Origin: an uncultured Acidobacteriota bacterium | Lineage (GTDB): Bacteria; Acidobacteriota; Thermoanaerobaculia; UBA5066; Gp7-AA6 | Direction: 5' to 3' | Assembly (NCBI GenBank): GCA_963825175.1 | Contig: CAWGSA010000002.1 | Location: forward strand, 2,270,346-2,334,345 | Length of the DNA stretch: 64,000 nt | In this document: piece after piece, positions 34,924 through 61,698 of the stretch | Position numbering within the stretch: position 1 is the stretch's first letter | Layout: the number at the start of each line of letters is the position of its first letter | Translations under genes and position numbers: made by a program | Notes under the pieces: generated by a model | Database searches by the model: none | What the model saw: the letters and a program-made list of their open reading frames with translations, nothing else | What the model was told of the DNA's origin: nothing

Positions 34924-35509
34924 GATGATGAGGCCGGGAGCGGGAGCGGAGGACCGGGCGCTCCTCGAGCGGGTCCGCCGTGGCGACACGGACGGAGCGG
35001 CGGAGCTCTTCGACCGCTACGCCCCGGCCCTGTTGCGCTTCGCGGACCGTCTCCTGTCGGACCGGAGCACGGCGGAAGAGGTGACCCAGGAGGTCTTCGT
35101 CAAGGTGATATCCCGAGCCCATCAATACGACGGCCGCGCGGAAGTGGCCTCCTGGCTCTTCGCCATCGCCGCCAACGCCTGCCGGGACCGACGGCGGCGC
35201 GACCGCCGGGCCACGGTTGTGCCGCTCGACGCCGTCGCGGAGCCGGCGGACGCCCCGAAGGGAGAGGGGGTTCTGGGCCGTATGGTGGAGCGCGAGAAGC
35301 GCGATGCCGTCCGCCAGGCCCTCGCGCTCCTCTCGGAGGAACAGCGGGAGGCCCTCATCCTGGCGCGCTACCAGGGACTCCCCTATGCCGAGATCGCCCG
35401 CATCCTCGGGATCTCGGTTGGAGCGGTCAAGACACGCATCTTCCGGGCCGTCGAGACGCTCAAGGCCCGTTTCTCGGAAGGAGAAGCCTCATGGAATGCC
35501 GCGAATTGA
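34924..35509 (+). CDS. ECF (group IV) RNA polymerase sigma-70 factor
   Basis: Region 2 LLERVRRGDTDGAAELFDRYAPALLRFA..EEVTQEVFVKV and region 4 YQGLPYAEIARILGISVGAVKTRIFRA. The true ATG is at 34924, inside the longer track ORF. Confidence 0.85.
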
Positions 35510-36417: not shown

Positions 36418-36447
36418 GGTCCTGCGATTCGGGAACGGAGTAACTTC

Positions 36448-38430
36448 GTGAGCACCGTCGCGTCTCTCTCGACGATGAAGATCCAAACGACTCCGCGCGG
36501 GCAGGCCGCATCCGACCGCCCGGCCCTCTGGCTCGCGCTCCTGGCGGGTCTCATCCTGATGGCCATCGCCGCCGCGGCCCGCTCCGAGGTCGGAGGCTTC
36601 CAGGCCCGGCGGACCGAGAACTTCACTGCGACGCTCGCTTCCGGCGCGACGCTCAAGGTCGAGAACGTCTCCGGGGACATCGTGGCAAAGCCGGGCCGCG
36701 CGTTTGCGGCCGTCGTCACCATCGTGGTGACAGCGCCGACTCAGAAGGAAGCCGAGGAGCTCCTGTCCGCCACGCGCGTCACCCAGTCGCGGGAAGGAGA
36801 CGACGTTTCCCTGGAAACACACTGGCCGGGATCGGACGAACGGCACGTTCGGGGATCGCGCTCCTGGGTCACGCGCCAGATCCACCCGCTGCCGTGCCGG
36901 CAGTGCCGCATCACGGCTCAGTACGAGCTGACCGTTCCGCCTGGAATCCGGACGGCGCTCAACAACGTCAACGGCGACGTCCGGGCCGACGATCTCGACG
37001 CCGACCTGAGCCTCCAGACGGTCAATGGCGCCGTGTCCGTGCGCGGGGCGCGCCGGTCGGTCACCGCCCACAGCGTCAACGGCAAGGTGAATCTCGTTTC
37101 CCGGAGTCTTCCGCCGGCGGCGCGGATCGACCTCAAGACCGTCAACGGCGCGGTGCTCGCGACCCTGCCCCGCGAGGCGAAGTTCCAGCTGTCGGCTTCG
37201 TCCATGAACGGGGTCATCGCGTCCACCTTCGCATTGCCCCCGCGCGCCGAGACCGACGCCGACGAGGTCATCGCTCCGCGGCCGGTCGTGGCGCCGAATC
37301 CTCCCCGCACGCCCAGGGCCCCGCGCCGGATCGTCATCGAGAAGGACGGCGACGAAGACGACGTGGTGGTCGACTTGAAGGAGCTCGAGAAAGAGCTCGA
37401 GGAATCGATGCGCGAGGTCGACGTGGAGGTGCAGAGAAACGTCCGGGGAGTCGACCGCCAGGTGCGCCGGATGCGGATTCTTCCCGGAGGCGACTACACC
37501 GGCTCGATCGGGCAGGGCGGAGCGGCCGTGCACGCGTCGACGTTGAACGGCTCGATCACCGTGCTCGCCAGTGGCACCGTCGAAAACGAGGCGAAGGTCC
37601 TGGTGTCCCCCCGGCGGTCATTCTCCGTCGAGGTGCCGCGCGTGCCGATGCCGCACGTCGAGGTGAGGATTCCTCGGATCGAAGTGAGGGCTCCGCGCGC
37701 CATCATTCCGCGCACGCTCGTCCGGGTCGAGTCCGGCCTGCCGGGAGCGGAGGACGAAGTGGTGCGGGGCGACGTGGCCGGCGACTTTCTGGCCACTTCC
37801 GGCAGCGGAAGCTATCGGATCGGAAACGTGACGGGCCGGGTGAAGGTCCTGACCCAGGCCGGCGAGATTCATGTCGGCTCCATCGGCGCAGGCGCCGAGC
37901 TGAAGACCTACGGGGGCGACATCACGATCGGGCCGGTCCATGGAGACCTGAAGGCTCTGACCATGGCCGGCGACGTGCATGCCGGCGCCGTCACGGGCTC
38001 CGCGACGGTCGACACGTCCGGCGGCGACGTCCGCATCGAGCGCATCGGCGGAGCGGCCGACGTCCGCACCGGAGGCGGGGACATCGTGCTGCCGGCGGTG
38101 GCCGGAGCCGTCGAAGCCCACAGCAGCGGCGGCGACGTCCGCGTGGATCTCGTCTCGCGGGATCCCCGGGGTCCCATCGTGATCCACAACGGCGGCGGGG
38201 ACGTGACCCTGACCCTGCCTCGCGACATGCGCGCGGACGTCGAGCTCGACGTGACCGATTGCGGCGACCCGGGGGACAGTTTCATACGATCGGACTTTCC
38301 CGAAATCTCGGTGCTGCGGCGCAGCGACTCGGCCCACGCTTCGGGCGCCTTGAACGGCGGCGGCACCCGCGTCCTCGTGCGCACCAGCTCCGGAACGATC
38401 CGCATCCGCAAGGGGCCGGCCTCGCAATAG
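36448..38430 (+). CDS. DUF4097-type (putative adhesin / beta-helix repeat) protein with N-terminal TM anchor
   Basis: Many repeats of (T/S)xNGxV, (S/T)GGDV, GDV..R..G across 660 aa. The third-position GC bias supports this frame over the antisense ORFs. This is a common third gene of ECF/anti-sigma modules. Confidence 0.6.
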   Translation: MSTVASLSTMKIQTTPRGQAASDRPALWLALLAGLILMAIAAAARSEVGGFQARRTENFTATLASGATLKVENVSGDIVAKPGRAFAAVVTIVVTAPTQKEAEELLSATRVTQSREGDDVSLETHWPGSDERHVRGSRSWVTRQIHPLPCRQCRITAQYELTVPPGIRTALNNVNGDVRADDLDADLSLQTVNGAVSVRGARRSVTAHSVNGKVNLVSRSLPPAARIDLKTVNGAVLATLPREAKFQLSASSMNGVIASTFALPPRAETDADEVIAPRPVVAPNPPRTPRAPRRIVIEKDGDEDDVVVDLKELEKELEESMREVDVEVQRNVRGVDRQVRRMRILPGGDYTGSIGQGGAAVHASTLNGSITVLASGTVENEAKVLVSPRRSFSVEVPRVPMPHVEVRIPRIEVRAPRAIIPRTLVRVESGLPGAEDEVVRGDVAGDFLATSGSGSYRIGNVTGRVKVLTQAGEIHVGSIGAGAELKTYGGDITIGPVHGDLKALTMAGDVHAGAVTGSATVDTSGGDVRIERIGGAADVRTGGGDIVLPAVAGAVEAHSSGGDVRVDLVSRDPRGPIVIHNGGGDVTLTLPRDMRADVELDVTDCGDPGDSFIRSDFPEISVLRRSDSAHASGALNGGGTRVLVRTSSGTIRIRKGPASQ

Positions 38431-38502
38431 CCTGGGACAGGCCCTGCGCCCGATCCCGTCACCAGCGCCAAACCCGACCGGCACGCTCTGAGGCCCGATT
38501 CC

Positions 38503-38520
38503 GGGTCCGCGGGGTCCGCG
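38503..38520. repeat. Tandem 9-mer (GGGTCCGCG)x2 between convergent genes
   Basis: ccgggtccgcggggtccgcggacgg lies in the 95-nt gap between the DUF4097 stop and the epimerase stop. Confidence 0.4.
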
Positions 38521-38525
38521 GACGG

Positions 38526-39518
38526 CTACCGGATCCTCAGGACCTTGACCGGCTCGAGGTCGACTTCCCGGCCCAGGCCGAACCTGGGATCGTGCCTCAT
38601 CGCTCCGTGCAGAGATTCGCGCAAACCGGGGCGCAGCGCGATCCAGTCTTCGCCGAACACGCGAACGGTGTCCGAGAGATCGGCCGCGTTGTCGCGCGAA
38701 AGGCTCCGGAGCTGGTCTCGCGTCAGAGGAGGATCGGGGATCCAGCCGCGGCGCGCCATCCACTCGAAGCACGATGCCAGGATCGCGCCCCACCAGAGCG
38801 GGAGGTGGAGCAGCGGCTTGCGGGGCCTGCCAACCGCGATCGCGATCTCCCGATAGACGTCGTTCAACGCGAGCGTGGCCGGACCGCCGACCTCGAAGGT
38901 CCGGCCGACCGTCTCCGGCTTCTCCAGCGCGTCGGCGAAGACCCGAGCCACGTCATAGATCGAGACGGGCTGAAACCGGGTCGTGCCGGGCCCGATCACG
39001 GGAATGAAGCCGGGGTTGCTCCGCACGATTCCGGCCAGCAGCGAGAAGAAGCCGTCCCCGGGCCCGAAGATGATCGAGGGACGGAAGATCGTCCAATCCA
39101 GACCCGACTCCCGGACAGCCTTTTCGCCGGCGGCCTTGCTCCGGCTGTATGCGGAGAGAGAGTCGGGCGAGGTTCCCATCGCGCTCATGTGCAGGAGGCG
39201 ACGGACGCCGGCCGAATCCATCGCCGCGATCACGTTGGCGACCCCTTCGTGGTGGACCCGCTCGAACGTCTGACCGCCGTCCTCGTGGATGATGCCGACC
39301 AGGTGCACGACCGCCTCCTGCCCGAGGACGGCTGAAGCGAGCGAGCGCGGGTCGAGGACGTTGCCCGATCGGCTCTGGACGGGCCGGTTGTAGCGGTTGC
39401 GCGTCGCGGCCTCCCCGCGCGCCAGGACCGCCACGGCGTGACCGCGCCGCAGCAGGGCGTTGACCAGATGCGTCCCGACGAACCCGGTGCCACCGGTGAC
39501 GAGGATTTTCAATTCCAC
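38526..39518 (-). CDS. NAD(P)-dependent epimerase/dehydratase-family (NmrA/CIA30-like) protein
   Basis: MELKILVTGGTGFVGTHLVNALLRRGH.. Rossmann GxxGxxG. 330 aa. Confidence 0.75.
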   Translation of the reverse strand: MELKILVTGGTGFVGTHLVNALLRRGHAVAVLARGEAATRNRYNRPVQSRSGNVLDPRSLASAVLGQEAVVHLVGIIHEDGGQTFERVHHEGVANVIAAMDSAGVRRLLHMSAMGTSPDSLSAYSRSKAAGEKAVRESGLDWTIFRPSIIFGPGDGFFSLLAGIVRSNPGFIPVIGPGTTRFQPVSIYDVARVFADALEKPETVGRTFEVGGPATLALNDVYREIAIAVGRPRKPLLHLPLWWGAILASCFEWMARRGWIPDPPLTRDQLRSLSRDNAADLSDTVRVFGEDWIALRPGLRESLHGAMRHDPRFGLGREVDLEPVKVLRIR

Positions 39519-41702: not shown

Positions 41703-42489
41703 TCACGCTCCCGTGTCGTAGAAGGTCAGCTGCACGAGGCCGAACTTGAGAGCGTCGCCGTTTTTGATCGAGGCGGGAGTCCCTGTGGCCAGCCGGGTCT
41801 CGTTGACGAACGTACCGTTCATCACGCCGATCTCTTCCATGACGTAGAAATGCCCGGCGAGCTGGTAGAGCTTCGCGTGCCGCCGCGACGTGGACCTCTG
41901 CGGATCGAGAGTCGAGAGGTCGACGTCCGGAGTGATGCCGGTCACCGGATCGGCGCGGCCCACCAGCGTGTCTCCCTCGCGGTTGAGGAAGAACTCCGCC
42001 TTCCCCTCCGGGGCCACGAGGCGGCACACGTCCCGCTCCGGCGCGGCGCGGCGCGGCGGCGGTTTCTCCTCCTCCGGGACCTGCCGGCCCAGCGACTCTT
42101 CCAGCATCGCGGTGACCTCGCGCAGCCTCCGAGAGAGCTTGCGCATCATGCGCACCGCGATCTCCGTGTTGCTCTTCAACATCGTGTCGAACATCGCGCC
42201 GTTAATTTTCACGAGCTCGACGTCCGTCTTGGCGCGGGCCGAAGCCGTGCGCGGGAAGATCTTCGAGAACGCTCATCTCGCCGAAGAAGTCTCCCTTCTC
42301 CAGGGTCGCCAGGACCCGCGTCTCGCCGGCGATCTGTTTGAAGAGCTCCACGATCCCCGCCTGGATGATGAACATCTCCGTGCCGATATCCCCCTCGGAG
42401 AAGATCATGTCCCCCATCGGGTGCGCCACGATGTAGCGCTCGAAGGGGTTCTTCCCTCCGGCCGGACCGGACTTGAAGACCGCCTTCAT
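41703..42489 (-). CDS. Cyclic-nucleotide-binding domain / FHA domain fusion protein, with an apparent 1-nt frameshift near 42254 (CCC run)
   Basis: cNMP domain (DMIFSEGDIGTEMFIIQAGIVELFKQ..TLEKGDFFGEMSVLEDL) in ORF 42202..42489. It continues in the -1 frame as PRTASARAKTDVELVKINGAMFDTMLKSNTEIAVRMMRKLSRRLRE, then the FHA domain (LVGRADPVTG..VSRRHAKL..NGTFVN). The start overlaps the ldcA stop. Confidence 0.65.
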
Positions 42490-43430
42490 CGGGTCTCCCC
42501 GCGGGCCGGGGCGACGCCCGGCTCCAGGAAGGAGAGTTTCCCGATTCCGTCCAGATCCAGGCGGACCCGGGTGCCCAGCGGCAGCGTGCGGGGTCGGCGC
42601 AGGTGACCGGCGGGAAAGTTCATCGCGACGGGAAACTCCGCACCGCGAAAACGGAGCCGCAGGTACTCCCCGATCTGCTCCGGAGAGTCGGTCCGACCGC
42701 CGGGAAGCACCGAGCCGATCACCATGCCCCGCAAACCATCGAGGGTACCCGAGCGTTCCAGCTGGGTCAACAGACGGTCCAGGCGATAGGTCTCCTCGCC
42801 GATGTCTTCCCAGAACAGGATGCTGTCGGTCGCCGGAATGGATTCCCGCGTCCCGCAGAGCGACGCCAGCAGCGACAGACAGCCCCCGATGAGCGGGCCT
42901 TCCGCGCGGCCAGAGGCGAGAATGTCCTCCGCGGCGAATTGATGGATCTCGGGAATCGAACCGGCGAGGACGCGCTCCCAGTCCAGAGCCTCGGGTCCCT
43001 CGTCCGCCAACTGCACCGCAACCATCGGTCCGTAGAACGCGACCAGGGCGGCTTCTCGCATGAGGAACGCAAAGTGAGCGGTCAGATCGGACGATCCCAG
43101 ATGGATCTTGGGATGCGCGCGGACCTCGTCCGGATCGAGGAGGGCGAGAACGCGGGACGCGCCGTAGCCTCCCCGCGCGAAGAAAATCGCGTCGATGGAC
43201 GGATCGGTCAGCAGGCTACGATATCCGGCCGCCCGCGCCGCATCCGAACCCGCGAGGAATCCCAGTCGAGATCGCAGATTCGCGGCCTCGGCGATCCGAT
43301 AGCCCTTGGCCCGCAGCGCCGACAGTCCGCGGTCGAGGCTGTCGAGGTCGACCGGGCCCGACAGCGCGGCGACTCCGATCGTCGCGTTCGGCGCGAGGCG
43401 ACGGGGCTTCAGCAAGAGTCGAGATTCCAA
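42486..43430 (-). CDS. ldcA: LD-carboxypeptidase (peptidase S66, LdcA/MccF family)
   Basis: IGVAALSGPV.., GGYGASRVL, HLGSSDLTAHFAF, with the catalytic S/E/H region. TTG start. Confidence 0.75.
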   Translation of the reverse strand: MESRLLLKPRRLAPNATIGVAALSGPVDLDSLDRGLSALRAKGYRIAEAANLRSRLGFLAGSDAARAAGYRSLLTDPSIDAIFFARGGYGASRVLALLDPDEVRAHPKIHLGSSDLTAHFAFLMREAALVAFYGPMVAVQLADEGPEALDWERVLAGSIPEIHQFAAEDILASGRAEGPLIGGCLSLLASLCGTRESIPATDSILFWEDIGEETYRLDRLLTQLERSGTLDGLRGMVIGSVLPGGRTDSPEQIGEYLRLRFRGAEFPVAMNFPAGHLRRPRTLPLGTRVRLDLDGIGKLSFLEPGVAPARGETR

Positions 43431-43516: not shown

Positions 43517-43539
43517 CCACGCGAAAAAAGCTCTGAGCG

Positions 43540-43914
43540 GGCCGATAAGCCGAATTCTGTTCCCCTTCCGGGGCCGCGATCATTCCTCTACGCCCGAGGT
43601 CGCCCTCGGGCTCCAGCAGCCGACCCGGAGACGGCCCGCGCGAGGCGGGACGGGACGGGCACCCACCGTCTCCCTATTTGGCCTTGCTCCGCATGGGGTT
43701 TACCGTGCCCCCTCCGTTGCCGTCGGGGCGGTGCGCTCTTACCGCACCGTTTCACCCTTGCCGTCCGGCTCCAAAAGAAGCCGGAAGGCGGTCTGTTCTC
43801 TGTGGCACTTTCCTTCGCGTCGCCGCGACCGGGTGTTACCCGGCATGCCGCCCGTTCTGGAGTTCGGACTTTCCTCCCCGATGACTCGGGGCGATCGTGT
43901 GGCCCGCTCAGAGC
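43540..43914 (-). ncRNA. rnpB: RNase P RNA (bacterial type A)
   Basis: The reverse complement contains GGAGGAAAGTCCGAACTCC (P4 5' strand), CAAGGGTGAAACGGTGCGGTAAGAGCGCACC (P10-12), CGGTAAACCCCATGCGGAGCAAGGCCAAATAGGG, and ACAGAATTCGGCTTATCGG (P4 3' strand). The P1 helix GCTCTGAGCGGGCC/GGCCCGCTCAGAGC is followed by TTTTTT. The overlapping track ORFs are spurious. Confidence 0.85.
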
Positions 43915-44477: not shown

Positions 44478-45077
44478 TTATATATTGTTCTCTCCGCGCC
44501 GGGGATGTTGCAGTCGGAACAGGAGGAGTTGAATCGTCCGTCCGACGCGCGGCCGATGCAGGAGCAGAACGAAGGCGAGGCCGGCAAGAAGGATGGCCGT
44601 GAACAATGGCTGAAAGAAACAGAGAGTCGCCAGCACCACCGCCACCGTGTCTTCCGCCAGGGACAGAAGAAACTGCGTCGATCCTCGGATCGCGGCGGTG
44701 GACGTCAATCGGGTTGTCGACTTGGCCAGATGCGCTCCCAGGGTGGCCAGGGCCGCGGCGATCCCGGCTCCGACCCGCCCGAAACCGGCGGACTCCGGCA
44801 GGCACGCCAGCGTCAGAAGCACTCCGACCACGGGGCGCAGGAAAGTGTGGGCCGATTCCCAGAACCGATCCACGACGGGAATCTTGTTGACGACGAACTC
44901 GGCCACGAAGAGCACCAGAGCGATCTGGAGCACGATCGGGCTGGAGAGAAACGGCGTGACGCCGCCGGGAAAGTCCTGCGGCAAGAGGCGCACCAGCCCC
45001 TGAAAGAGCAGCAGTACCGCCCAGGCGTTGAGACCGGCCGCGGCGGCGAGCCCCAGGCCGGTCAGGAGCGCCATCAC
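44478..45077 (-). CDS. DUF4126-family membrane protein
   Basis: Four to five TM helices (MMALLTGLGLAAAAGLNAWAVLLLF.., IVLQIALVLFVAEFVVNKIP). The start overlaps the upstream gene. Confidence 0.55.
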   Translation of the reverse strand: MMALLTGLGLAAAAGLNAWAVLLLFQGLVRLLPQDFPGGVTPFLSSPIVLQIALVLFVAEFVVNKIPVVDRFWESAHTFLRPVVGVLLTLACLPESAGFGRVGAGIAAALATLGAHLAKSTTRLTSTAAIRGSTQFLLSLAEDTVAVVLATLCFFQPLFTAILLAGLAFVLLLHRPRVGRTIQLLLFRLQHPRRGENNI

Positions 45078-46759
45078 GTTCGGCGGAAGAGACGCGAGAG
45101 GAGGCCGGGCCTCGCGGAGTCTCCCGCGTCGGGGGGAGATTGCGAGCCCAGGTCCACCTCGCCGGCCGACGCCGGACGAGCGGAGGCCGGGATCGGAGGC
45201 CGGGGAGGGGCCGCGGGAGCAGGTGCCGGCGGCGAGGAGGGCGGCGCCGCGGGCGGTGGCGGAGGCGGCGCCTCCTTGGCCAGAATCGACTGGAGCAGGG
45301 CCTGGTTTTCGGCAGACGGATCGAGCCCCACCAGCCGCCGTCCGAAGATCTCGGCGTCATAGGACTGGCCGTGCTCCGCGAGAGCTCGTGCGGCGGCGGC
45401 CAGGAAATCCTTGTTGCGGGGCGCCAGACGCGCCGCTTCCTTCAGGTTCGCCAGCGCCTTGTCCGCCCACCGCGCGTTCTTCAGCTCGACCTGGGCCAGC
45501 GCGAATCGGTACTCGGCGTTGTCCGGCACGAACCGGATCGCTTCCCGCAGCATCTCCACGGCCGGGTGGTAGTCCTTCTCCGCGATGAGCTGCTTGGCCC
45601 GCCGGAAGCTTTGCGCCGCCATCTGCTCGCGGACCTTCGGGTCCGACACGCTGTCGGACACGAGCACCGGCGTGGGCGCTTCGGCCAGCGAGGCATCGTA
45701 TTCCGTGCGCTTCTGCGAGTCCGACAGCGTCTCGTGCGCCTTCTTCAGTCGATCGAAGACCGCGGCGAGCTCCTTGGCGAACTGGGTCAGGTCTTCCCGG
45801 TGACGCAGGTCGGGATGAAAGAGCCTGCTGCGTTCGAAGTAGGCCTGCTGGATCTGGTCCCCGGTCGAATCCGGTTTGATGCCCAGGAGCTCGTAGTGCG
45901 TCAACCAGTCGATGCGCCGATACGTGTTCTTGACCAATTCCGCGTGCCCCGGGGCCCGCTTGGACGCCTCCGCGGCCACCTCGATATTCAAGCGGTCGAC
46001 TCCCGCCACATGTTCCACCGACGCCGGCGGTGAGCCTTCCGTCCGCCACTCCACGATCCCGCAGGAAAGAAGCGCGTAGAGGGTCTTCGCCGTCGCCCCC
46101 CGCGACGCGCCCCCGATCTTCAGCAAGGAATCGAGATCGAGGCTGCCGTCGATCCGCGATAGAAGGTACGCCTCCTGCGGCGTCAGCGGAAGGTACTGGT
46201 AGCGAGACATGGGGTCGGGGGAAAGGATCGCCACCCGGCGGCCGTCGCCCAGCCGCTCCCGGAAGATCTCGGTCTCCGGCAGTCGACGGATTCCCTCAAC
46301 GATGATGGCGGCCGTGGAGAGCGACAGCGCCACGTCGGGATCGAGCACGCCGGTCGAAGACTGGAAGCGGTACTCTCCGTCCGCCCATTCGAACGTCGAG
46401 TAGACGATCTCCTCCACCAGCCGCCGCATCTCGGCGTCGAGCACCGCGCGGGAGACCAGGCCCTTTTCCACCAGGATCTTCCCCAGCCGCGCACGGCCCT
46501 GGCGCGCGACGGTCTCCAGTGCCCAGGAGATGTCCTGGTCCGTGATCCAGCCGCGCCGCTTCAGGAACGCTCCGATGCGCTGCCCCTCCCGCGACGAGGT
46601 CGCCGTGCGCAGCTCTCCCTTTTCGAAGAAGAGATGCCGCGTCTCGTCGCCGTGGACGAGCGTCAGCGTTCCCTTCAGACGCTCGAGAAAGATCCGCCGC
46701 AGGACCTGCGGGAGCGGCGTCTCGCTGAGCGACCCTCGGAATCCTGGTGACTTGTCCAT
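45074..46759 (-). CDS. DUF4388 (PATAN-like) - J-domain - TPR protein
   Basis: N-terminus GSLSETPLPQVLRRIFLERLKGTLTLVHG (DUF4388 signature). J-domain YELLGIKPDSTGDQIQQAYFERSRLFHPD (HPD motif). TPR-like C-terminus and a Pro/Ala-rich tail. Confidence 0.75.
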   Translation of the reverse strand: MDKSPGFRGSLSETPLPQVLRRIFLERLKGTLTLVHGDETRHLFFEKGELRTATSSREGQRIGAFLKRRGWITDQDISWALETVARQGRARLGKILVEKGLVSRAVLDAEMRRLVEEIVYSTFEWADGEYRFQSSTGVLDPDVALSLSTAAIIVEGIRRLPETEIFRERLGDGRRVAILSPDPMSRYQYLPLTPQEAYLLSRIDGSLDLDSLLKIGGASRGATAKTLYALLSCGIVEWRTEGSPPASVEHVAGVDRLNIEVAAEASKRAPGHAELVKNTYRRIDWLTHYELLGIKPDSTGDQIQQAYFERSRLFHPDLRHREDLTQFAKELAAVFDRLKKAHETLSDSQKRTEYDASLAEAPTPVLVSDSVSDPKVREQMAAQSFRRAKQLIAEKDYHPAVEMLREAIRFVPDNAEYRFALAQVELKNARWADKALANLKEAARLAPRNKDFLAAAARALAEHGQSYDAEIFGRRLVGLDPSAENQALLQSILAKEAPPPPPPAAPPSSPPAPAPAAPPRPPIPASARPASAGEVDLGSQSPPDAGDSARPGLLSRLFRRT

Positions 46760-46780
46760 TGGGGTGGTCCGCCGACAATT

Positions 46781-48519
46781 CTACCGGACCCCGACGACGG
46801 CCGGGTGATTGGCCGCGGTCGAGAAATAGGGCGGGATCCCGGATTTGGCCCGCTTCGCCTCCTCGATCGTCGCGTACCGGCCCCACAGGACCCGGAAACA
46901 GTCGCGTCCGCCGTGTTTCGTCGTCAACACCCACATCGACCCCGCCGGGTGGTCGTGTTTCCAGGCTTCCGCCAGAGACGGAACCTCGCAAACGAGCTCC
47001 AGCTGGATGGCGTACCGCGTCCGCTTCTCCGCCTTCAGGCGGCGGGCGTCCTTTGCGGCCCTCTCCAGCCAGGCCGAGCGTCCGGAGGCCGGGACGGGAG
47101 CCGTCTCTTCCGCCCCCCGAGCCGGGCTGGGCCTCGGGGACGGGGCGGGGGAAGCCGCAGGGCGGCGCGCGGTCGGCGCACGGGAGGCGGAGGCGGTCGC
47201 GGCCGGGGCCGTTGTCGGAGCCGGAGCGGCGGTCGGCCGGGACGTCGGCGCCGCGGCTGCCGCGGTGCGGGCTCCGGCGGGCATCGCAGCGGGTGTCGGA
47301 AGGGCCGGGCGCGGCGTCTCCCGCCGCGCGGACCACGACTTGAGAAGGAGTGTGGCGGCGACCGCCAGCAGCAGAACGATCAGCAGGGTTCCGAACAGGA
47401 ACGGGCGCCTTCGGCCCGGAGGCCCATCTCCCCCTCCGCTCTCAAGGACCGGCGCGGGTCCGCGCTCCGACGGCTCGGGCGGAGGCTCCCAGGGCGGAGC
47501 CGCCGGCGTCTCCCAGATCGGCTGCGTCGTTCCGGTGAGGGACGCCTCGCGCGCGTCGAGGCCAGGCGCCTCCGGGTCGAGCGACCGCCATCTCTCCTCC
47601 GACGCTTCGGGCGCGTCCTCCGGTTCGCCGGCCGACGCGCGCGTCGCCAGCGGCAGATCGGCCAGCTCGCCGTCGTTCTGAGTCTCGCCCGCGGGGGGCT
47701 CACCGGCATCGGCTGAGGAGAGCGCCACGGTCCACGGCTCCAGGGCCGCCGGCTCGCTCGGGGCGGGTTCCTCCGATGCTTCGACCGCGGAGAGCGGAGC
47801 CGGCGCCGGGTCCTCGAATTGCCCCGATCGCAGCAACCCCAGCGTTTTCAAGGCGGCCAGGAGTTTCAGGACCGCGAACTCCTCCGCCGGCGCGCGCTCG
47901 GAAATCTCCATCGCGCTGGCCTGCCCGTCGATCAGCGCCACGACCGATTCCGCGTCCGCGGTCAAGCCGAACGTCGCGAACTCCTCGTCGAACGCGGCCG
48001 AACGCAGCAGCGGCGCGTCGGTCGGGCCGAGCTGGTGTTCGACCAGATGGCGGTCGCGCGAGCGCAGGAAGAGCTCGAGCAGCAGCCGGGGCACGGTCAG
48101 GGTGAACTCGCCGCGGGCAGGCCGCGCCTCCTGGTCGAAGACGTACCGGCCGTCGGGCCAGGACAGCAGATCAGCCAGGATCTCGATGGCGCGGATCTTC
48201 TCTCCCCATTTCCACTCCCGCTTCGTGAGAATTCCGGCGGCCAGCGCGGCCAGGGCGCCGTCGCTGCCGGGGGGCACGGAAAGACGCTCCACCGCCGCGG
48301 CGTCCAGCTTTCCGGCCCGAACCAGGATGGCCGACGTTTCGAACCGGGCCTCGGACGAGGAAATCGCCGTGATCTCGCCGTCGGCCAGGTCGAAGCCGGC
48401 GCTGGCGGCTCCGCCCCGCGAAAAGCGCAACGATCCGCTGCGGGCCTCTCTCCACAACGCCACGAACGCGGCGAGGAGGTCGACTTCGCGAACCTCACCG
48501 GCGGCCCCGAAGGCCTCCT

Positions 48520-48523
<4 letters not shown>
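46781..48523 (-). CDS. DUF4388-domain protein with Pro/Ala-rich linker, one TM and a C-terminal SPOR-like domain
   Basis: N-terminus VREVDLLAAFVALWREARSGSLRF (DUF4388-like). TM FLFGTLLIVLLLAVAATLLL. C-terminus YAIQLELVCEVPSLAEAWK..MWVLTTKHGGRDCFRVLWGRYATIEEAKRAKSGIP resembles the SPOR (septal peptidoglycan-binding) fold. Confidence 0.6.
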
Positions 48524-50331
<1,808 letters not shown>

Positions 50332-53268: not shown

Positions 53269-55659
53269 GTGCCCCGCCGCATCCTCTTTCTCGGTGCGCC
53301 CCTGGTCGCCGTGGGCCTGTTGGGCGTCCTGGCCGGCTCGGTGGCGACCGGCTTCGTCCGCGTCCCCCGCGTTTCGGCGCTCGAGACGTATCGGCCCGAC
53401 ATCATCACCGAGATCCGGGCCACCGACGGTTCGACGATTGCCCGCTACGCGATCCAGCGCCGGATCCTGATCTCGCGCTCGGAAATCCCCGCGGTGCTGA
53501 AGAACGCCATCGTGGCGACGGAGGACAAGAACTTCTATCGCCACGGCGGCGTCGACCTGGTCCGAACGGTGTCGGCGGTCGTGGCGGATCTTCGGCACCA
53601 ACGCTACGCCCAGGGCGGTTCCACCCTGACCCAGCAGCTGGCCAGAGCGATCTTCCTTTCCCCGCGCAAGACGATCTCCCGAAAAGTCAACGAGGCCCTT
53701 GTGTCCTTCGAGATCGAGAGGCGCTACTCGAAGGATCAGATCCTGACGATGTACGTCAACGAGATCTACCTGGGGCACGGCAACTACGGATTCGAGGCTG
53801 CCGCGCGCTACTACTTCGGCAAGAGCGTCAAGGAGCTGACGCTGCCGGAGGCGGCCCTGCTCGCCGGAATCGTCCAGCGTCCCGAAGACCAGTCTCCCTT
53901 TCGCAACCCCGTCCTGGCCCGGGCCCGGCGCGCCACGGCGCTGCGTCGCATGCGGGCCGCCGGATTCATCACCGAGGAGCAGCGCCGCTCGGCCGAAGAG
54001 GAGCCCCTGCCGGCCGCGCCTTCGCTGAAGGAAACGGTGGTCGCGCCGTACTTCTGCGAAGAGATCCGTCAGTATCTGGAGCGGACGTACGGCGAGAAGG
54101 ACCTCTACCGGAGAGGATTGCGGGTCGACTCGACTCTCGATCCGCAGCTGCAGGCCGTCTCCGAGGAGGCGCTGGGCTGGGGCCTGCGCCGCCTGGCCCG
54201 CCGCCACGGCTTTCGCCGGGCGCGCAACCTCCTCGAGGAGGGCTACAAGAATCCGTCCACCTACATCGATCCATCCTGGGAGAACGCGCGCCTGGCGGAA
54301 GGAGACGCCGTCCGGGGCGTCGTCGAGAACGCGGCGCGCGCGGGGGCCGAGGTCCGCATCGCCGGCAAGACGTTCCCTCTGCGGCCGTCGGGGTACGCCT
54401 GGACCGGCGCCGCGTCCGCCGCGAAGATCCTGAAGTCCGGCGATCTCGTGACCGTGACCATCCAGAAAGAGAAGGACGGAGGCGCCTTGCAGCTGGAGAA
54501 CGATCCGCGCGAGCAGGGAGCGGTCCTGATTCTGGAGAACTCGACCGGCGCGGTCCGGGCGATGGTCGGTGGGTACGACTGGTCCACGTCGAAGTTCAAC
54601 CGCGCGACCCAGGCGCTGCGGCAGGCCGGGTCCACCTTCAAGCCGTTTGTCTACCTGACGGCGCTGGAAGAGGGGTTCACTCCCTCCGACACGATCTTCG
54701 ATGAGCCGATCGCGATCCGGTACGATCCCCGCAGGCCTCCCTACGAGCCGAGCAACTACGACAAGAAGTTCCGGGGCATCGTGACGCTGCGCCGAGCCCT
54801 CGAGCACTCGATCAATGTGCCGACGATCCGGCTCGCGCAGATGGTCGGACTCCAGAACGTGATCGGGACCGCGCAGCGCCTGGGCATCCACGAGCGGCTC
54901 GAAGCCTGGCCCTCTCTGCCCCTGGGCTCCTTCGAGGTCACTCTGTTCGAGATGACGTCGGTGTACTCGGTCTTCGCCAATCAGGGCCTCGCGTTCCAGC
55001 CCTACACCTTCGAGCGCATCACCGACGCCGACGGGGATCCCCTCGAGCAGACGCACCCGGAGGCGCGGGAGGTCGAGAGCCCGCAGGCCGCTTTTCAACT
55101 CCTGCAGATGTTGAAGGGCGTCACGCAGCGGGGAACCGGAGCCGCGGCCGCTTCTCTCAAGCTCAATATCGCCGGCAAGACAGGCACGACGTCGGACTTC
55201 ACCGACGCCTGGTTCATCGGGATGACTCCCCGCTACACCGTCGGCGTCTGGGTGGGCAACGATCTGAAGACGGTCAGCCTGGGCCCGGGCATGGAGGGCG
55301 CAAGGGTCGCGCTGCCGATCTGGATGCGCATCCTGCAGGCGATGAAGGACCGCGGCCGGATCGATCCGAGCGCCGACTTCGAGGCTCCGCCCAACGTCGT
55401 CTTCACCCCTGTCGACTACGAGACGGGGCTCAAGGCCACTCCCAACAGCCCCCGCCCGATCCTCGAGGCGTTCGTGAACGGTTCGCAGCCGACCGAGGAA
55501 TGGAGCTCCAAGTGGGAGGACATCATCCGCCTTCCCTGGTCTCTGCAGAAGTCGTTCTACATGCCCAAGAAGGGCGAAGCCGGAGAAGCCGCGGTGGACA
55601 CTCCGGCGACGACGCCCGTTCCGCTCGCGCCCACGCCGGTTCCCCAGGCCGTGCACTGA
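53269..55659 (+). CDS. mrcA: Penicillin-binding protein 1A (bifunctional transglycosylase/transpeptidase)
   Basis: GT51 motifs ATEDKNFYRHGGVD, GGSTLTQQLAR, RKVNEAL. Transpeptidase STFKP, SIN, KTGTT. Confidence 0.9.
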   Translation: MPRRILFLGAPLVAVGLLGVLAGSVATGFVRVPRVSALETYRPDIITEIRATDGSTIARYAIQRRILISRSEIPAVLKNAIVATEDKNFYRHGGVDLVRTVSAVVADLRHQRYAQGGSTLTQQLARAIFLSPRKTISRKVNEALVSFEIERRYSKDQILTMYVNEIYLGHGNYGFEAAARYYFGKSVKELTLPEAALLAGIVQRPEDQSPFRNPVLARARRATALRRMRAAGFITEEQRRSAEEEPLPAAPSLKETVVAPYFCEEIRQYLERTYGEKDLYRRGLRVDSTLDPQLQAVSEEALGWGLRRLARRHGFRRARNLLEEGYKNPSTYIDPSWENARLAEGDAVRGVVENAARAGAEVRIAGKTFPLRPSGYAWTGAASAAKILKSGDLVTVTIQKEKDGGALQLENDPREQGAVLILENSTGAVRAMVGGYDWSTSKFNRATQALRQAGSTFKPFVYLTALEEGFTPSDTIFDEPIAIRYDPRRPPYEPSNYDKKFRGIVTLRRALEHSINVPTIRLAQMVGLQNVIGTAQRLGIHERLEAWPSLPLGSFEVTLFEMTSVYSVFANQGLAFQPYTFERITDADGDPLEQTHPEAREVESPQAAFQLLQMLKGVTQRGTGAAAASLKLNIAGKTGTTSDFTDAWFIGMTPRYTVGVWVGNDLKTVSLGPGMEGARVALPIWMRILQAMKDRGRIDPSADFEAPPNVVFTPVDYETGLKATPNSPRPILEAFVNGSQPTEEWSSKWEDIIRLPWSLQKSFYMPKKGEAGEAAVDTPATTPVPLAPTPVPQAVH

Positions 55660-55681
55660 GCCGTCCATCGGCAATGACGAC

Positions 55682-57004
55682 TTGAAGACCCCGAGCGTCC
55701 CGATTCCATCGCCCGCCGACCAGTCCCCCGCTCTCTTCTCCCCCTCGTCCTGGCTCGGTGCGGGTCGTTCGATCCTTTTCGCCCGCGGCAGCGACGCCGC
55801 CGCGCGATTTGTCCTGTTCCTCGCCGCGGCGCGCGTCCTGACCTCCACCGATTTTTCGGTCTATGCCCTGCTCACCGCGGCGCTGGCCACGTGTCAATGG
55901 ACGCTTTCGCTGGGCGCTCCGCGCATCGCGCTGTACTTCCACGCCCTGGGACGGCGCGGGACGCTGTTCGGATGGCTCTACCTTCTCGCCCTCTTCGCCA
56001 GCGTGCCGGTCTTCGGAGTGACTCTGGCCGCTCCTCCCCTGCGCCATGTCCTGTTCCCGGCGGTTCCGACCGGCTGGATCCTCCTGGGGCTGGCGCCGCT
56101 TCCCTTCTCGCTGGTGGGAGACTCGCTGGCTTCGACGCTCATCGCCGCCGGGCGCACGCGCGCTTACGGCGCGACTCTCTGGATTCGCAACGCCGGAACC
56201 GCGATCGTGCTGGCCTCGAGTCTGACCTCCCGCGATCGGCTGTTGTGGATTCTGGCCGGTCGCCTTGCCGTCCAGGGAGGCGTCGCCGCGATCACGGCCG
56301 TGGCGGCGCACGCCCGGCCGCGGATGGGAGGCCTCCGCGCCTTCATTCCTGAAGCGCTGGCCTACGGCGTACCCACCGCCCTCTCCGACGGCGTCGTGGC
56401 GGTGCACCGCCGCGCGGACGTGTTCCTGCTCTCGGCCCTCGGACGCACGCCGGAGATCGGGGCTTATGCCCTGGCCTATGCACTGGCCGAAGCGTTCTGG
56501 CTGGTGACCGACTCTTTCGAGGCCGCGCTCTTCGTCGACATCACCAGACGTCCCGACGTCGACGCGCGTGCCGCCGCCGCCCGGGCGTTCCGGCTCTCGC
56601 TGTGGATCGGCCTGTGCGGGTTCCTGCCCGGCGTGCTCCTGGCCCAGGGCCTTCGCAGCGTGTTCTTCGGCGGCCGCTATTCCGACGCGCGAGGGCTTCT
56701 GCCCTGGACGCTCGCGGCGGCAGTAGCGTGGGGGGTCTCCCGACCTTTCGCCTCCTATCTCGGCTCTCGCGGGCGTTTGCGAGCGCTCGTCGCCTGCCAC
56801 ACGGCCAGCCTCGCGGCGAACCTTCTCGCCAACGTGCTTTTGATTCCTCGGCATGGCGCGATGGGCGCCGCCATCGCGTCCCTCGCGAGCTACACGCTCG
56901 ACGCGATTCTGCTCGGCATCGCCTTTCGTTGGACCGGAGCCGCTGGCGATCGCGCCGCGGCCGGCGACAGGACGAGCTCAAACGGGGGTCTTGAACCGGA
57001 CTGA
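55682..57004 (+). CDS. Polysaccharide/oligosaccharide flippase-like membrane protein (MOP/Wzx-MurJ superfamily)
   Basis: About 12 TM helices, 440 aa, immediately downstream of mrcA. Family-level call only. Confidence 0.55.
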   Translation: MKTPSVPIPSPADQSPALFSPSSWLGAGRSILFARGSDAAARFVLFLAAARVLTSTDFSVYALLTAALATCQWTLSLGAPRIALYFHALGRRGTLFGWLYLLALFASVPVFGVTLAAPPLRHVLFPAVPTGWILLGLAPLPFSLVGDSLASTLIAAGRTRAYGATLWIRNAGTAIVLASSLTSRDRLLWILAGRLAVQGGVAAITAVAAHARPRMGGLRAFIPEALAYGVPTALSDGVVAVHRRADVFLLSALGRTPEIGAYALAYALAEAFWLVTDSFEAALFVDITRRPDVDARAAAARAFRLSLWIGLCGFLPGVLLAQGLRSVFFGGRYSDARGLLPWTLAAAVAWGVSRPFASYLGSRGRLRALVACHTASLAANLLANVLLIPRHGAMGAAIASLASYTLDAILLGIAFRWTGAAGDRAAAGDRTSSNGGLEPD

Positions 57005-58570: not shown

Positions 58571-58651
58571 AGGTTCGGAACCGGGCGGAACGTCCGGCGG
58601 CGAAACCTCCGGAGGTTTCCGGCCACGCCGCCCGACGTCTTCCGCGATTGG

Positions 58652-59343: not shown

Positions 59344-59362
59344 CGGATCCTCCTCATGGATG

Positions 59363-59962: not shown

Positions 59963-59965
59963 GCC

Positions 59966-60676: not shown

Positions 60677-60718
60677 AAGGTTGTTCCCGGCGCGGCACAC
60701 CGCGCAAAGCGGGGCATT

Positions 60719-61675: not shown

Positions 61676-61698
61676 GCAAAGCGATTGTATCGAATCGC

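What the first reader, a model, noticed from the sequence alone, without database searches (positions are those of the whole stretch)
45074..48523. Two adjacent DUF4388 (PATAN-like) proteins: one J-domain/TPR, one TM/SPOR
Both neighbours start with the DUF4388 signature (G(S/E)L.E..L..V...........G.L.F). The first adds a DnaJ J-domain (HPD motif), TPR repeats and a Pro/Ala-rich tail. The second adds a long Pro/Ala/Glu-rich linker, a single TM helix and a SPOR-like septal-peptidoglycan-binding domain.

This pairing puts an Hsp70 co-chaperone module next to a divisome-targeting module, both behind receiver-like DUF4388 heads. It suggests a cell-division or polarity regulator of the kind seen in Myxococcota and Acidobacteriota, though this one is uncharacterised.

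They sit between uvrC and a DUF4126 membrane protein.
Basis: partly seen in the sequence, partly recalled or inferred. Interest (0 to 1): 0.55.

Follow-up and report, generated by a model that had tools for sequence, protein, structure and literature searches.

The report
Paired PATAN proteins: J-domain co-chaperone and SPOR anchor
Two neighbouring genes of an uncultured Acidobacteriota (Thermoanaerobaculia) genome share the same roughly 240-residue PATAN signalling module: one adds an Hsp70-recruiting J-domain and a membrane-binding tail, the other a membrane anchor and a cell-wall-binding SPOR domain, so together they probably bring chaperone activity to the division site, though nothing has been tested experimentally.

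Summary
Both ORFs are real genes on the minus strand: A (45074-46759, 561 aa) and B (46781-48523, 580 aa).

**A:** PATAN/DUF4388 (79.5 bits), a J-domain with HPD (55 bits), and TPRs that only just reach threshold.

**B:** DUF4388 just above threshold (28.9 against 25), one TM helix, and a C-terminal domain that misses Pfam's SPOR cutoff. A profile search and a confident model (pLDDT 93.6; top PDB matches DamX, DedD, CwlC, RlpA) show it is a divergent SPOR domain.

- The shared unit is a 240-residue module: PATAN core, a four-helix "alpha-clip" and a winged-helix-like end.
- A's alpha-clip is homologous to the MshEN c-di-GMP-binding motif but lacks both key glutamines. B's is degenerate.
- A ends in a conserved MinD-like amphipathic tail (GLLSRLFRR).
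- PATAN is not receiver-like.

**Conservation:** uvrC-B-A-DUF4126 is tightly packed and found in all 54 related genome loci. More distant PATAN-J-TPR genes stand alone. Fused PATAN-PATAN-J proteins exist elsewhere.

**Best reading:** B is a SPOR-anchored membrane platform that positions A, a membrane-bound Hsp70 co-chaperone. The domain assignments are firm; the coupling is inferred. This is a new variant of known kinds, of moderate interest.

The parts
45074..46759 (-). Gene A, 561 aa: PATAN module, J-domain, TPR, Pro/Ala linker, amphipathic tail
   Evidence: ORF. Pfam DUF4388, DnaJ and TPR_19. More than 300 homologues of 66-100% identity.
46040..46738 (-). A residues 8-240: extended PATAN module (beta-sheet core, four-helix alpha-clip insert, winged-helix-like end)
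   Evidence: The whole stretch aligns in most of 9003 relatives. AlphaFold model pLDDT 94.1, pTM 0.89. No solved structure matches the whole module; best Foldseek E is 0.05.
46418..46579 (-). A residues 61-114: two tandem MshEN-like 24-residue motifs (R61-V84, R91-L114) within the alpha-clip
   Evidence: Regex match. NCBIfam NF053729 c-di-GMP_motif 34-36 bits, cutoff 38. Module profile hits MshE N-domain 5HTL at E 1.2e-11, PilF at 4e-25, and PilB. Foldseek local matches to c-di-GMP-bound PilF GSPII-B, probability 0.99, rmsd 1.6-3.2 A. Both terminal Gln positions are replaced, by V84 and L114.
45695..45901 (-). A residues 287-355: J-domain, with HPD at 45809-45817
   Evidence: Pfam DnaJ 55.4 bits. 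PDB J-domains at E about 1e-6 with HPD aligned. HPD invariant in 120 orthologues.
45290..45622 (-). A residues 380-490: TPR region (about three repeats)
   Evidence: TPR_19 25.4 bits against cutoff 25; other TPR models below threshold. Consensus-TPR proteins in PDB at E 1e-4 to 1e-3.
45110..45280 (-). A residues 494-550: Pro/Ala-rich linker of variable length
   Evidence: 35% Pro and 25% Ala. Poorly conserved and gapped in orthologues.
45077..45109 (-). A residues 551-561: conserved C-terminal amphipathic tail PGLLSRLFRRT (MinD-like membrane-targeting sequence, inferred)
   Evidence: The L-x-SRLF-x-R pattern is conserved in 80-95% or more of 120 orthologues. Similar tails (GFLKKLFKK, GLLKRLFPRG, GFLNRLFKSE) occur in many distant PATAN-J-TPR proteins. 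Hydrophobic moment 0.75.
46781..48523 (-). Gene B, 580 aa: PATAN-like module, acidic linker, TM helix, Ala/Pro linker, SPOR domain
   Evidence: ORF. Close to 400 homologues. Its start ATG overlaps the uvrC stop as ATGA.
47810..48523 (-). B residues 1-238: divergent PATAN module with a degenerate alpha-clip (RLG replaced by E-T-S; second RLG lost by deletion)
   Evidence: Pfam DUF4388 28.9 bits. hhalign to the A-type module at 99.2% over 238 columns. No NF053729 hit. Family-specific invariant block T100-R102-W106-GEKIR-E114.
47408..47809 (-). B residues 239-372: cytoplasmic Pro/Ala/Glu-rich linker, net charge -22
   Evidence: Composition. Unconserved and gapped in the family.
47342..47398 (-). 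B residues 376-394: single transmembrane helix, preceded by RRR
   Evidence: Kyte-Doolittle 19-residue maximum 2.8, LFGTLLIVLLLAVAATLLL.
47084..47341 (-). B residues 395-480: periplasmic Ala/Pro/Thr/Arg-rich linker, net charge +7
   Evidence: Composition.
46784..47080 (-). B residues 482-580: divergent DamX-like SPOR domain with a leading helix, invariant Q507 and two invariant Cys (C512, C542)
   Evidence: The profile hits only the DamX SPOR domain 2LFV in PDB sequences, E 4e-4, with Q507 aligned to DamX Q351. 20 of 33 family members give sub-threshold Pfam SPOR hits. Model pLDDT 93.6. Foldseek top hits DamX, DedD, CwlC, RlpA at probability 0.99-1.0. Invariant residues.
48520..50331 (-). uvrC, immediately upstream, with a 4-nt overlap with B
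   Evidence: Pfam UvrC domains. ATGA junction. Upstream of B in 62 of 63 metagenome loci and in all 54 genome loci where sequence is available.
44478..45077 (-). DUF4126 membrane protein, whose start overlaps the stop of A
   Evidence: Pfam DUF4126 109 bits. GTGATG junction. Conserved downstream of A in the related loci.

Best explanation
**What B is.** B is a bitopic inner-membrane protein with the topology of DamX, FtsN and DedD. Its C-terminal SPOR domain sits in the periplasm, where SPOR domains bind peptide-free ('denuded') glycan strands that accumulate at the division septum. Its N-terminal PATAN-type module is held in the cytoplasm on a long acidic linker.

**What A is.** A is a specialised J-domain co-chaperone.
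- Its HPD J-domain should stimulate DnaK/Hsp70.
- Its PATAN module and TPRs should select the partner or client.
- Its conserved C-terminal amphipathic tail should hold it on the inner face of the membrane.

**How they would work together.** The two genes are co-transcribed, with tight junctions in uvrC-B-A-DUF4126. The proteins are proposed to pair through their homologous PATAN modules. B would then position A, and through it Hsp70 remodelling activity, at the septum or at sites of cell-wall processing.

**Shown:** the domain identities, topology, conservation and gene order.

**Inferred:** septal targeting, membrane binding by the tail, DnaK recruitment, and above all the A-B interaction. 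A's MshEN-like alpha-clip may add a nucleotide (c-di-GMP) input, but this is the weakest step.
For: **Domains**
- B's SPOR domain keeps the key glycan-binding Gln: Q507 aligns with DamX Q351 (role of the residue from PMC6895207).
- By my own by-eye alignment of B's CFRV with FtsN's WNRV (not a tool result), R544 sits at the position of FtsN R285.

**Topology**
- B has one strong TM helix with RRR on the N-terminal side.
- A has no TM helix but carries a conserved amphipathic tail that recurs in distant family members.

**Operon and conservation**
- Junctions: ATGA overlap between uvrC and B, a 21-nt gap between B and A, and overlapping stop and start between A and DUF4126.
- The pair is conserved in 54 of 54 genome loci.
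- A lies downstream of B in 53 of 56 metagenome loci that extend at least 700 nt past the matched part of B. In the three exceptions that remaining sequence is shorter than the unmatched rest of B, so no locus with room for A lacks it.
- The pair is also present in a relative with 59% module identity.

**Modules working in pairs**
- 34 of 138 representative relatives carry two or more full modules in one chain.
- 8 of these are PATAN-PATAN-J, several with one module lacking RLG motifs and one keeping them. This is the fused counterpart of B-module plus A.

**Precedents**
- PatA (PATAN-REC) binds the divisome proteins ZipN and SepF (PMC7380572).
- A dedicated DnaK1/DnaJ3 system localises to poles and contacts the pilus motor in Nostoc (PMC9239167).
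Against: - No direct evidence of an A-B interaction was obtained. No complex prediction could be run.
- The adjacency sits in a block that is syntenic as a whole: class A PBP, uvrB, uvrC, B, A, DUF4126, NYN, RNase P RNA, LD-carboxypeptidase. Shared ancestry alone could keep the genes together.
- PATAN-J-TPR proteins with 36-50% module identity occur without any B-like neighbour. The A-type protein therefore does not generally need B.
- A and B modules share only 18% identity, so B is not a recent copy of A.
- The SPOR domain is below Pfam's threshold, and glycan binding is untested.
- Other PATAN proteins act on type IV pilus motors rather than on division (bioRxiv 10.1101/2021.06.11.447907).
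Confidence: 0.45

Rival explanations
1. The two proteins act independently. B is simply a DamX/DedD-like septal SPOR protein whose cytoplasmic PATAN module binds some divisome or peptidoglycan-synthesis partner. A is a general member of the widespread PATAN-J-TPR family with its own target. They are neighbours only because this genome block is inherited intact.
For: The whole block of about 13 kb is syntenic in the clade. More distant PATAN-J-TPR genes are solitary. The two modules are only 18% identical.
Against: Every B-like gene found has A directly downstream. The operon junctions are tight. Fused PATAN-PATAN-J proteins show that two modules plus a J-domain can form a functional unit.
Confidence: 0.3
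2. The pair regulates a type IV pilus, secretion or motility machine rather than division. The PATAN modules would bind PilB/PilC-type motor components, as in cyanobacterial PatA-type regulators. The J-domain would recruit DnaK to that machine, and SPOR would merely anchor the complex at poles derived from old septa.
For: PATAN regulators bind PilB1 and PilC (bioRxiv 10.1101/2021.06.11.447907). The alpha-clip is homologous to the N-terminal domain of PilB/MshE/PilF ATPases. Nostoc DnaK1/DnaJ3 act at the pilus motor (PMC9239167). PATAN proteins were recovered near SgmX in Myxococcus (PMC11580455).
Against: The Pfam scans of the main ORFs of the window showed no pilus or secretion genes, although several large ORFs gave no hit. 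The neighbours are DNA-repair and peptidoglycan genes. SPOR domains characterised so far target septa (PMC6895207).
Confidence: 0.12
3. A is a c-di-GMP receptor. Its alpha-clip binds c-di-GMP as MshEN does, switching partner binding or DnaK recruitment. B, with a degenerate clip, is the signal-blind partner.
For: The module profile hits MshE, PilF and PilB c-di-GMP domains in PDB. NF053729 matches 35 of 36 module relatives. RLG, the turn Gly and the hydrophobic positions are kept and invariant in A orthologues. The fold matches ligand-bound PilF GSPII-B.
Against: Both motif-terminal Gln residues are replaced, by V84 and L114. In PilF GSPII-B a single Q-to-E change weakens binding 77- to 158-fold and the double change abolishes it. 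PilF GSPII-A carries the motif but does not bind (PMC11731258). A scores just below the NCBIfam cutoff (35.8 against 38). The spacer is 6 residues rather than 5, position 7 of motif I is Lys, and the MshEN_C subdomain is absent.
Confidence: 0.2
4. The proteins are low-complexity sequences without real conserved domains.
For: About 40% of B and 12% of A is Pro/Ala-rich and unconserved. The weak GltJ and DamX NCBIfam hits on B largely cover this low-complexity stretch.
Against: The N- and C-terminal domains are strongly conserved, model at pLDDT 94, and have significant profile matches.
Confidence: 0.01

Closest known systems
PatA-type PATAN proteins (Anabaena PatA; Synechocystis PixE, PixG, PilG, LsiR)
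   Same: They share the N-terminal PATAN/DUF4388 domain with the alpha-helical 'alpha-clip' insertion. They have documented roles in partner binding at the membrane: ZipN and SepF for PatA, PilB1 and PilC for the Synechocystis regulators.
   Different: Those proteins carry a C-terminal receiver domain and sit in chemotaxis-like phosphorelays. A and B have no receiver. A has J-domain, TPR and an amphipathic tail; B has a TM helix and SPOR.
E. coli DamX, DedD and FtsN (bitopic SPOR division proteins)
   Same: B has the same topology: cytoplasmic N-terminus, one TM helix, low-complexity periplasmic linker, C-terminal SPOR. It shares the SPOR fold, has the DamX SPOR domain as closest structure, has an extra leading helix as in DamX, and keeps the key Gln.
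   Different: B is not an orthologue (DamX NCBIfam 22 bits against cutoff 256). Its cytoplasmic part is a folded 240-residue PATAN module, not found in any characterised SPOR protein that I know of. Its SPOR domain is below the Pfam threshold and has its own invariant Cys pair.
MshEN / GSPII c-di-GMP-binding domains (V. cholerae MshE, T. thermophilus PilF, PilB)
   Same: A's alpha-clip has two tandem 24-residue RLGxxLxxxGxI...L...L motifs forming four helices, with significant sequence and local structural similarity.
   Different: Both ribose-phosphate-binding Gln residues are missing in A. The spacer is 6 residues rather than 5. There is no MshEN_C subdomain. The clip is inserted in a PATAN beta-sheet core rather than preceding an ATPase.
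Specialised (class C/III) J-domain proteins such as CbpA, Nostoc DnaJ3, and cyanobacterial ZipN/Ftn2 / plant ARC6
   Same: A has a J-domain used as an Hsp70-recruiting handle next to targeting domains. From my own knowledge, ZipN/Ftn2 combines a J-like domain, a TPR and membrane anchoring at the division ring, and is a binding partner of the PATAN protein PatA.
   Different: No sequence similarity beyond the J-domain was found. A is anchored by a putative amphipathic tail rather than a TM helix, and it carries the PATAN module itself.
MinD / FtsA C-terminal membrane-targeting sequences
   Same: A has a short basic-hydrophobic amphipathic C-terminal peptide after a flexible linker. GLLSRLFRR resembles E. 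coli MinD KGFLKRLFGG (MinD sequence from memory).
   Different: This is an analogy of a short motif only. There is no homology of the proteins, and membrane binding is untested.

Membership tests
PATAN / DUF4388 (PF14332, PatA_N) | Match to the Pfam model above its gathering score | tested here: met
   A 79.5 bits and B 28.9 bits, both against a cutoff of 25. B is marginal on its own but is confirmed by hhalign at 99.2% and by hmmsearch at E 4e-21.
PATAN / DUF4388 (PF14332, PatA_N) | Alpha-helical insertion (alpha-clip) in the domain, as described by Makarova et al. 2006 | tested here: met
   A has four helices at 62-122 inserted between strands 4 and 5. B aligns through the same columns, but its RLG motifs are degenerate.
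J-domain (PF00226) | Pfam match above the gathering score, with an HPD tripeptide between helices II and III | tested here: met
   55.4 bits against a cutoff of 27.8. H315-P316-D317 is invariant in 120 orthologues and aligns to the HPD of DNAJA3.
J-domain (PF00226) | Stimulation of the Hsp70/DnaK ATPase | not testable with these tools
   Needs biochemistry. No dnaK gene was seen in the ORFs scanned in the window.
TPR | Match to a TPR model above its gathering score | tested here: inconclusive
   TPR_19 scores 25.4 against a cutoff of 25. All other TPR models are below cutoff. Consensus-TPR proteins in PDB match at E 1e-4. Many orthologues pass several TPR models.
SPOR (PF05036) | Match to the Pfam model above its gathering score | tested here: not met
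   No hit for the full-length protein. The isolated domain scores 16.8 bits against a cutoff of 21. 20 of 33 family members give sub-threshold hits, best E 0.0012.
SPOR (PF05036) | RNP-like beta-alpha-beta-beta-alpha-beta fold similar to solved SPOR domains | tested here: met
   Model pLDDT 93.6 with that strand and helix order. Foldseek hits ranked 1, 2, 3, 6 and 8 are SPOR domains of DamX, DedD, CwlC and RlpA at probability 0.97-1.0. The profile finds only the DamX SPOR domain in PDB sequences.
SPOR (PF05036) | Conserved Gln in strand 1 that contacts the MurNAc lactyl carboxylate (FtsN Q251, DamX Q351, RlpA Q270) | tested here: met
   Invariant Q507 aligns with DamX Q351. The role of the residue is taken from PMC6895207.
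SPOR (PF05036) | Binding to denuded glycans and septal localisation | not testable with these tools
   Needs binding assays and microscopy.
DamX orthologue (NCBIfam NF008153) | Score above the equivalog cutoff | tested here: not met
   22.2 bits against a cutoff of 256.
MshEN c-di-GMP-binding domain | Two tandem 24-residue motifs RLGxx(L/V/I)(L/V/I)xxG(L/V/I)(L/V/I)xxxxLxxxLxxQ joined by a 5-residue spacer | tested here: inconclusive
   RLG, the turn Gly and most hydrophobic positions are present in both motifs. The spacer is 6 residues and position 7 of motif I is Lys. NF053729 scores 35.8 bits against a cutoff of 38. The PDB MshE, PilF and PilB matches are significant.
MshEN c-di-GMP-binding domain | Terminal Gln of each motif, which hydrogen-bonds the ribose-phosphate | tested here: not met
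   These positions are V84 and L114 in A, and L114 is invariant in orthologues. The importance of the Gln residues is taken from PMC5013675 and PMC11731258.
MshEN c-di-GMP-binding domain | Actual c-di-GMP binding | not testable with these tools
   Needs ITC or DRaCALA.
   No hit in A or B at E <= 1. REC occurs as a separate domain in 9 of 79 relatives.
GltJ gliding-motility protein (NCBIfam NF033761) | Score above the equivalog cutoff | tested here: not met
   19.7 bits against a cutoff of 450. The match lies in the Pro-rich linker and TM region of B.

The most novel reading that the evidence does not exclude
A and B form a transmembrane relay. B would read the state of septal peptidoglycan (denuded glycans) in the periplasm. 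Through a heterodimer of PATAN modules it would switch a membrane-bound, c-di-GMP-sensitive J-protein (A) that directs Hsp70 to remodel divisome or envelope-synthesis complexes. This would be a chaperone-based checkpoint linking cell-wall processing, a second messenger and cytoplasmic protein remodelling. More broadly, the PATAN-J-TPR-tail proteins, which make up much of a module family of several thousand sequence clusters, would be a general class of site-specific Hsp70 recruiters in environmental bacteria.
Probability: 0.1. Interest if true: 0.75.

Novelty: new variant of a known kind. Interest (0 to 1): 0.42.

Why it matters
- **SPOR proteins.** They are the standard way in which bacteria mark the division septum from the outside. 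Here a SPOR protein carries a large folded signalling module on the cytoplasmic side, which no characterised SPOR protein I know of does. Its obligatory neighbour is an Hsp70 co-chaperone with the same module.
- **If the two interact.** This would be a concrete route by which chaperone activity is delivered to the division site. It could be tested with a few constructs.
- **The wider family.** The analysis also defines a widespread, unstudied family. 88 of the 149 best cluster representatives join this PATAN module to a J-domain, and many of those sampled also end in a MinD-like tail.
- **The alpha-clip.** The PATAN alpha-clip is systematically recognised by NCBI's c-di-GMP motif model. This raises the testable question of whether some PATAN proteins are c-di-GMP receptors.
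- **Limit.** None of this changes a textbook picture yet. It is a well-supported lead in a poorly studied phylum.

Tried and rejected
- **Direct BLASTP of A(1-250) against B(1-240)** found nothing significant (E 0.049). The homology appears only at profile level.
- **NCBIfam hits of B to DamX and GltJ** are far below cutoff and largely cover B's low-complexity linker region, the DamX hit also reaching into the SPOR domain. They were rejected as orthology.
- **Taxonomy of distant relatives** through cluster look-ups was almost uninformative. One Blastocatellia name turned up; the rest were unnamed metagenome proteins.
- **Other copies in the window.** There are no other PATAN, J or SPOR-like copies.
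- **Literature.** No paper in the library combines 'PATAN domain' with DnaJ. Wang et al. 2016 do not mention PATAN.
- **Tandem duplication** as the origin of the pair was considered unlikely. A's module is 25-59% identical to other PATAN-J proteins but only 18% identical to B's.
- **The first local MAFFT run** timed out and was repeated with faster settings.

Full report
**1. What is in the sequence**

The region holds two minus-strand ORFs, A (45074-46759, 561 aa) and B (46781-48523, 580 aa). The gene order on the minus strand is uvrB, uvrC, B, A, DUF4126, a YacP-like NYN protein, then RNase P RNA and an LD-carboxypeptidase. A class A penicillin-binding protein lies divergently upstream of uvrB.

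The junctions are tight:
- The uvrC stop and the B start overlap as ATGA.
- B and A are 21 nt apart.
- The A stop overlaps the DUF4126 start.

The window has about 65-78% G+C, so many spurious ORFs appear in other frames. Only A and B have homologues and domains.

**2.

Pfam gives the following for A:
- DUF4388/PatA_N: residues 8-162, E 2.8e-22, 79.5 bits.
- DnaJ: residues 287-355, 55.4 bits.
- TPR_19: 25.4 bits against a cutoff of 25, just at threshold.

The HPD tripeptide (315-317) is invariant in 120 orthologues. It aligns with the HPD of solved J-domains.

B gives DUF4388 at 28.9 bits against a cutoff of 25, and no SPOR hit at all. I therefore tested the SPOR claim separately:
- A 33-sequence alignment of the conserved C-terminal 100 residues (A1) was used as a profile. 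It finds exactly one PDB sequence at E <= 10, the DamX SPOR domain 2LFV (E 4e-4). The invariant Q507 falls on DamX Q351.
- Twenty of the 33 members give sub-threshold Pfam SPOR hits.
- AlphaFold2 on that alignment gives pLDDT 93.6 with a leading helix followed by beta-alpha-beta-beta-alpha-beta.
- Foldseek against PDB ranks the SPOR domains of DamX, DedD and CwlC first to third and RlpA sixth and eighth, at probability 0.97-1.0.

According to Alcorlo et al. (PMC6895207), that Gln (FtsN Q251, DamX Q351, RlpA Q270) contacts the MurNAc lactyl carboxylate. So the domain is a divergent, DamX-like SPOR domain. It fails the Pfam membership score but meets the fold and key-residue criteria.

B has a single strong TM helix (376-394) with RRR on its N-terminal side. 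An acidic Pro/Ala/Glu linker (net charge -22) precedes it, and a basic Ala/Pro/Thr linker follows it. That gives the N-in, SPOR-out topology of DamX, FtsN and DedD.

Neither protein matches Response_reg. In relatives the receiver appears as a separate domain (9 of 79).

**3. The shared unit is a 240-residue module**

I searched A(1-250) against 1.84 billion cluster representatives. This gave 9003 hits at E <= 1e-3 and 3179 at E <= 1e-10. Most align over the whole of residues 8-240, about twice the length of the Pfam model.

A model built on 36 diverse members (A3) has pLDDT 94.1 and pTM 0.89. It consists of:
- a beta-alpha-beta-beta-beta core;
- a four-helix insertion (62-122), the 'alpha-clip' of Makarova et al. 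2006;
- a fifth strand and further helices;
- a three-helix winged-helix-like end (194-238).

No solved structure matches the whole module. The best Foldseek E is 0.05, to Nprl2/Nprl3, which is too weak to interpret.

B's N-terminal 238 residues align to this module profile at 99.2% probability over 238 columns. BLASTP of the two proteins shows nothing, so the two are old paralogues at 18% identity.

**4. The alpha-clip is MshEN-like, but A lacks the glutamines**

NCBIfam's 'c-di-GMP_motif, MshE-related' model (NF053729) hits A residues 61-107 at 34-36 bits against a cutoff of 38. It hits 35 of 36 module relatives.

The module profile matches several c-di-GMP-binding domains in the PDB, all through positions 58-115:
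- T. thermophilus PilF: E 4e-25, four stretches.
- V. cholerae MshE N-domain 5HTL: E 1.2e-11.
- Several PilB proteins.

Foldseek gives local matches of the model to c-di-GMP-bound PilF GSPII-B at probability 0.99, rmsd 1.6-3.2 A and 30-37% identity.

A carries two motifs, R61-V84 and R91-L114. RLG, the turn Gly and the hydrophobic positions are kept and are invariant in orthologues. However, the last position of each motif is Val and Leu instead of Gln. In MshEN and PilF those Gln residues make the only side-chain hydrogen bonds to the ribose-phosphate (PMC5013675).

Evidence from PMC11731258 bears on this:
- In PilF GSPII-B, single Q-to-E changes weaken binding 77- to 158-fold.
- The double change abolishes binding.
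- PilF GSPII-A has the motif but does not bind.

In the wider module family the motif-II position is Gln in 82 of 157 and His in 39, while A's own clade has Leu. I therefore treat c-di-GMP binding by A as possible but unlikely (about 0.2).

B's clip has lost both RLG triplets: E-T-S in the first motif and a deletion in the second. Instead it has its own invariant surface, T100, R102, W106-GEKIR, E114.

The similarity between the alpha-clip and the PilB N-terminus was already noted in 2006 and by Han et al.. The held literature does not connect PATAN with c-di-GMP binding by the clip.

**5. A membrane-targeting tail on A**

The last 11 residues of A (PGLLSRLFRRT) follow a variable Pro/Ala linker. 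They are conserved in the orthologues as (L/F)(L/F)SRLF(R/K).

The same kind of tail ends many distant PATAN-J-TPR proteins: GSFLKKLFKKE, GGLLKRLFPRG, GGFLKKIFRR, GGFLNRLFKSE. It is strongly amphipathic, with a hydrophobic moment of 0.75. It resembles the MinD membrane-targeting sequence (from my own knowledge).

So A is best read as a peripheral membrane protein, although this remains an inference.

**6. Distribution and context**

Both families are abundant in Thermoanaerobaculia/Acidobacteriota MAGs.
- In all 54 related loci from the species-representative genomes, the order uvrB-uvrC-B-A-DUF4126-NYN is kept wherever the sequence extends.
- The class A PBP and the LD-carboxypeptidase flank the block in 46 of these loci.
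- A B-specific scan of metagenomes gave 80 loci. A is downstream in 53 of the 56 that extend at least 700 nt beyond the matched part of B. In the three exceptions that remaining sequence is shorter than the unmatched rest of B. uvrC is upstream in 62 of 63.
- A relative with 59% module identity keeps the arrangement.
- PATAN-J-TPR genes at 36-50% module identity stand alone, with no B, uvrC or DUF4126 neighbour.

The pair is thus clade-specific, and the adjacency lies inside a generally syntenic block. That limits its weight as evidence.

Among the best 149 representatives of the module family, 88 have a J-domain shortly after the module. In a Pfam scan of 79 of them, 46 have DnaJ, about 30 have TPRs, 9 have REC, 6 have protein kinase domains and 1 has GGDEF.

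Thirty-four of 138 carry two or more full modules in one chain. Eight are PATAN-PATAN-J, several with one RLG-less module and one RLG-bearing module. That fused arrangement mirrors B-module plus A. It is the best indirect support for the idea that the two modules work together.

**7. Mechanism**

My best reading is that B is a septum- or cell-wall-anchored platform and A is a membrane-bound Hsp70 recruiter positioned by B through module pairing. Section Best explanation separates what is shown from what is inferred.

Three precedents are relevant:
- PatA binds ZipN and SepF (PMC7380572).
- PATAN regulators bind PilB and PilC.
- A dedicated DnaK1/DnaJ3 pair acts at a membrane machine in Nostoc.

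The main rival is that the two proteins act independently. A pilus- or secretion-directed role and a c-di-GMP input are lesser alternatives.

**8. Verdict**

These are new domain architectures built from known parts: a SPOR protein with a PATAN head, and a PATAN-J-TPR protein with an amphipathic tail. They form a conserved pair in a poorly studied class.

Interest is moderate. The lead is sound and testable, and it comes with a wider, unstudied protein family, but there is no surprising mechanism yet.

Noticed in passing
window 46784-47080 (B residues 482-580): The SPOR-like domain has two Cys residues (C512 at the end of strand 1, C542 at the start of strand 3) that are invariant in the 28-33 diverse family members aligned. 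They sit on strands that are neighbours in an RNP-type sheet, so they may form a periplasmic disulfide, as reported for FtsN C252-C312.
   Followed up: partly
window 53269-55659 (+) and 42486-43430 (-): A class A penicillin-binding protein (transglycosylase plus transpeptidase) lies divergent from uvrB, and an LD-carboxypeptidase lies downstream of RNase P RNA. Both flank the block in 46 of 54 related loci. E. coli DamX and DedD are reported to stimulate PBP1A/1B (PMC7642682 abstract), so the proximity may or may not be meaningful.
   Followed up: partly
window 43530-43910 (-): Bacterial class A RNase P RNA: 284.7 bits, full length. It explains the ORF-free stretch between the NYN gene and the LD-carboxypeptidase gene.
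   Followed up: yes
window 41703-42489 (-): A 95-aa ORF with a truncated cNMP-binding domain (profile positions 4-61 of 89) overlaps by 11 nt a 169-aa ORF with an FHA domain. This may be one cNMP-binding-FHA gene split by a frameshift or a mis-set start.
   Followed up: no
protein P0011 (homologue of A, 658 aa): One metagenome protein joins the A architecture to DUF4126 in a single chain. Because the A stop and the DUF4126 start overlap, this could be a sequencing frameshift rather than a true fusion.
   Followed up: no
protein P0243 (686 aa) and the other multi-module proteins: Proteins with two to four full PATAN modules in tandem (up to 1492 aa) are common among relatives. P0243 (E 1.3e-89) comes from a 947-kb contig (NCBI/ENA) whose taxon was not established; it may be a second PATAN locus.
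   Followed up: partly
window 55523-57004, 57725-59095, 59360-61705, 36894-39335, 35383-37533, 37618-38793: Several long ORFs (390-813 aa) give no Pfam hit at E <= 1e-4 (1e-3 for 35383-37533 and 37618-38793). In this high-GC window some are probably spurious antisense frames, but real unannotated genes may be among them.
   Followed up: no
window 61956-62028 (-): One tRNA gene (Rfam, 63.7 bits).
   Followed up: no
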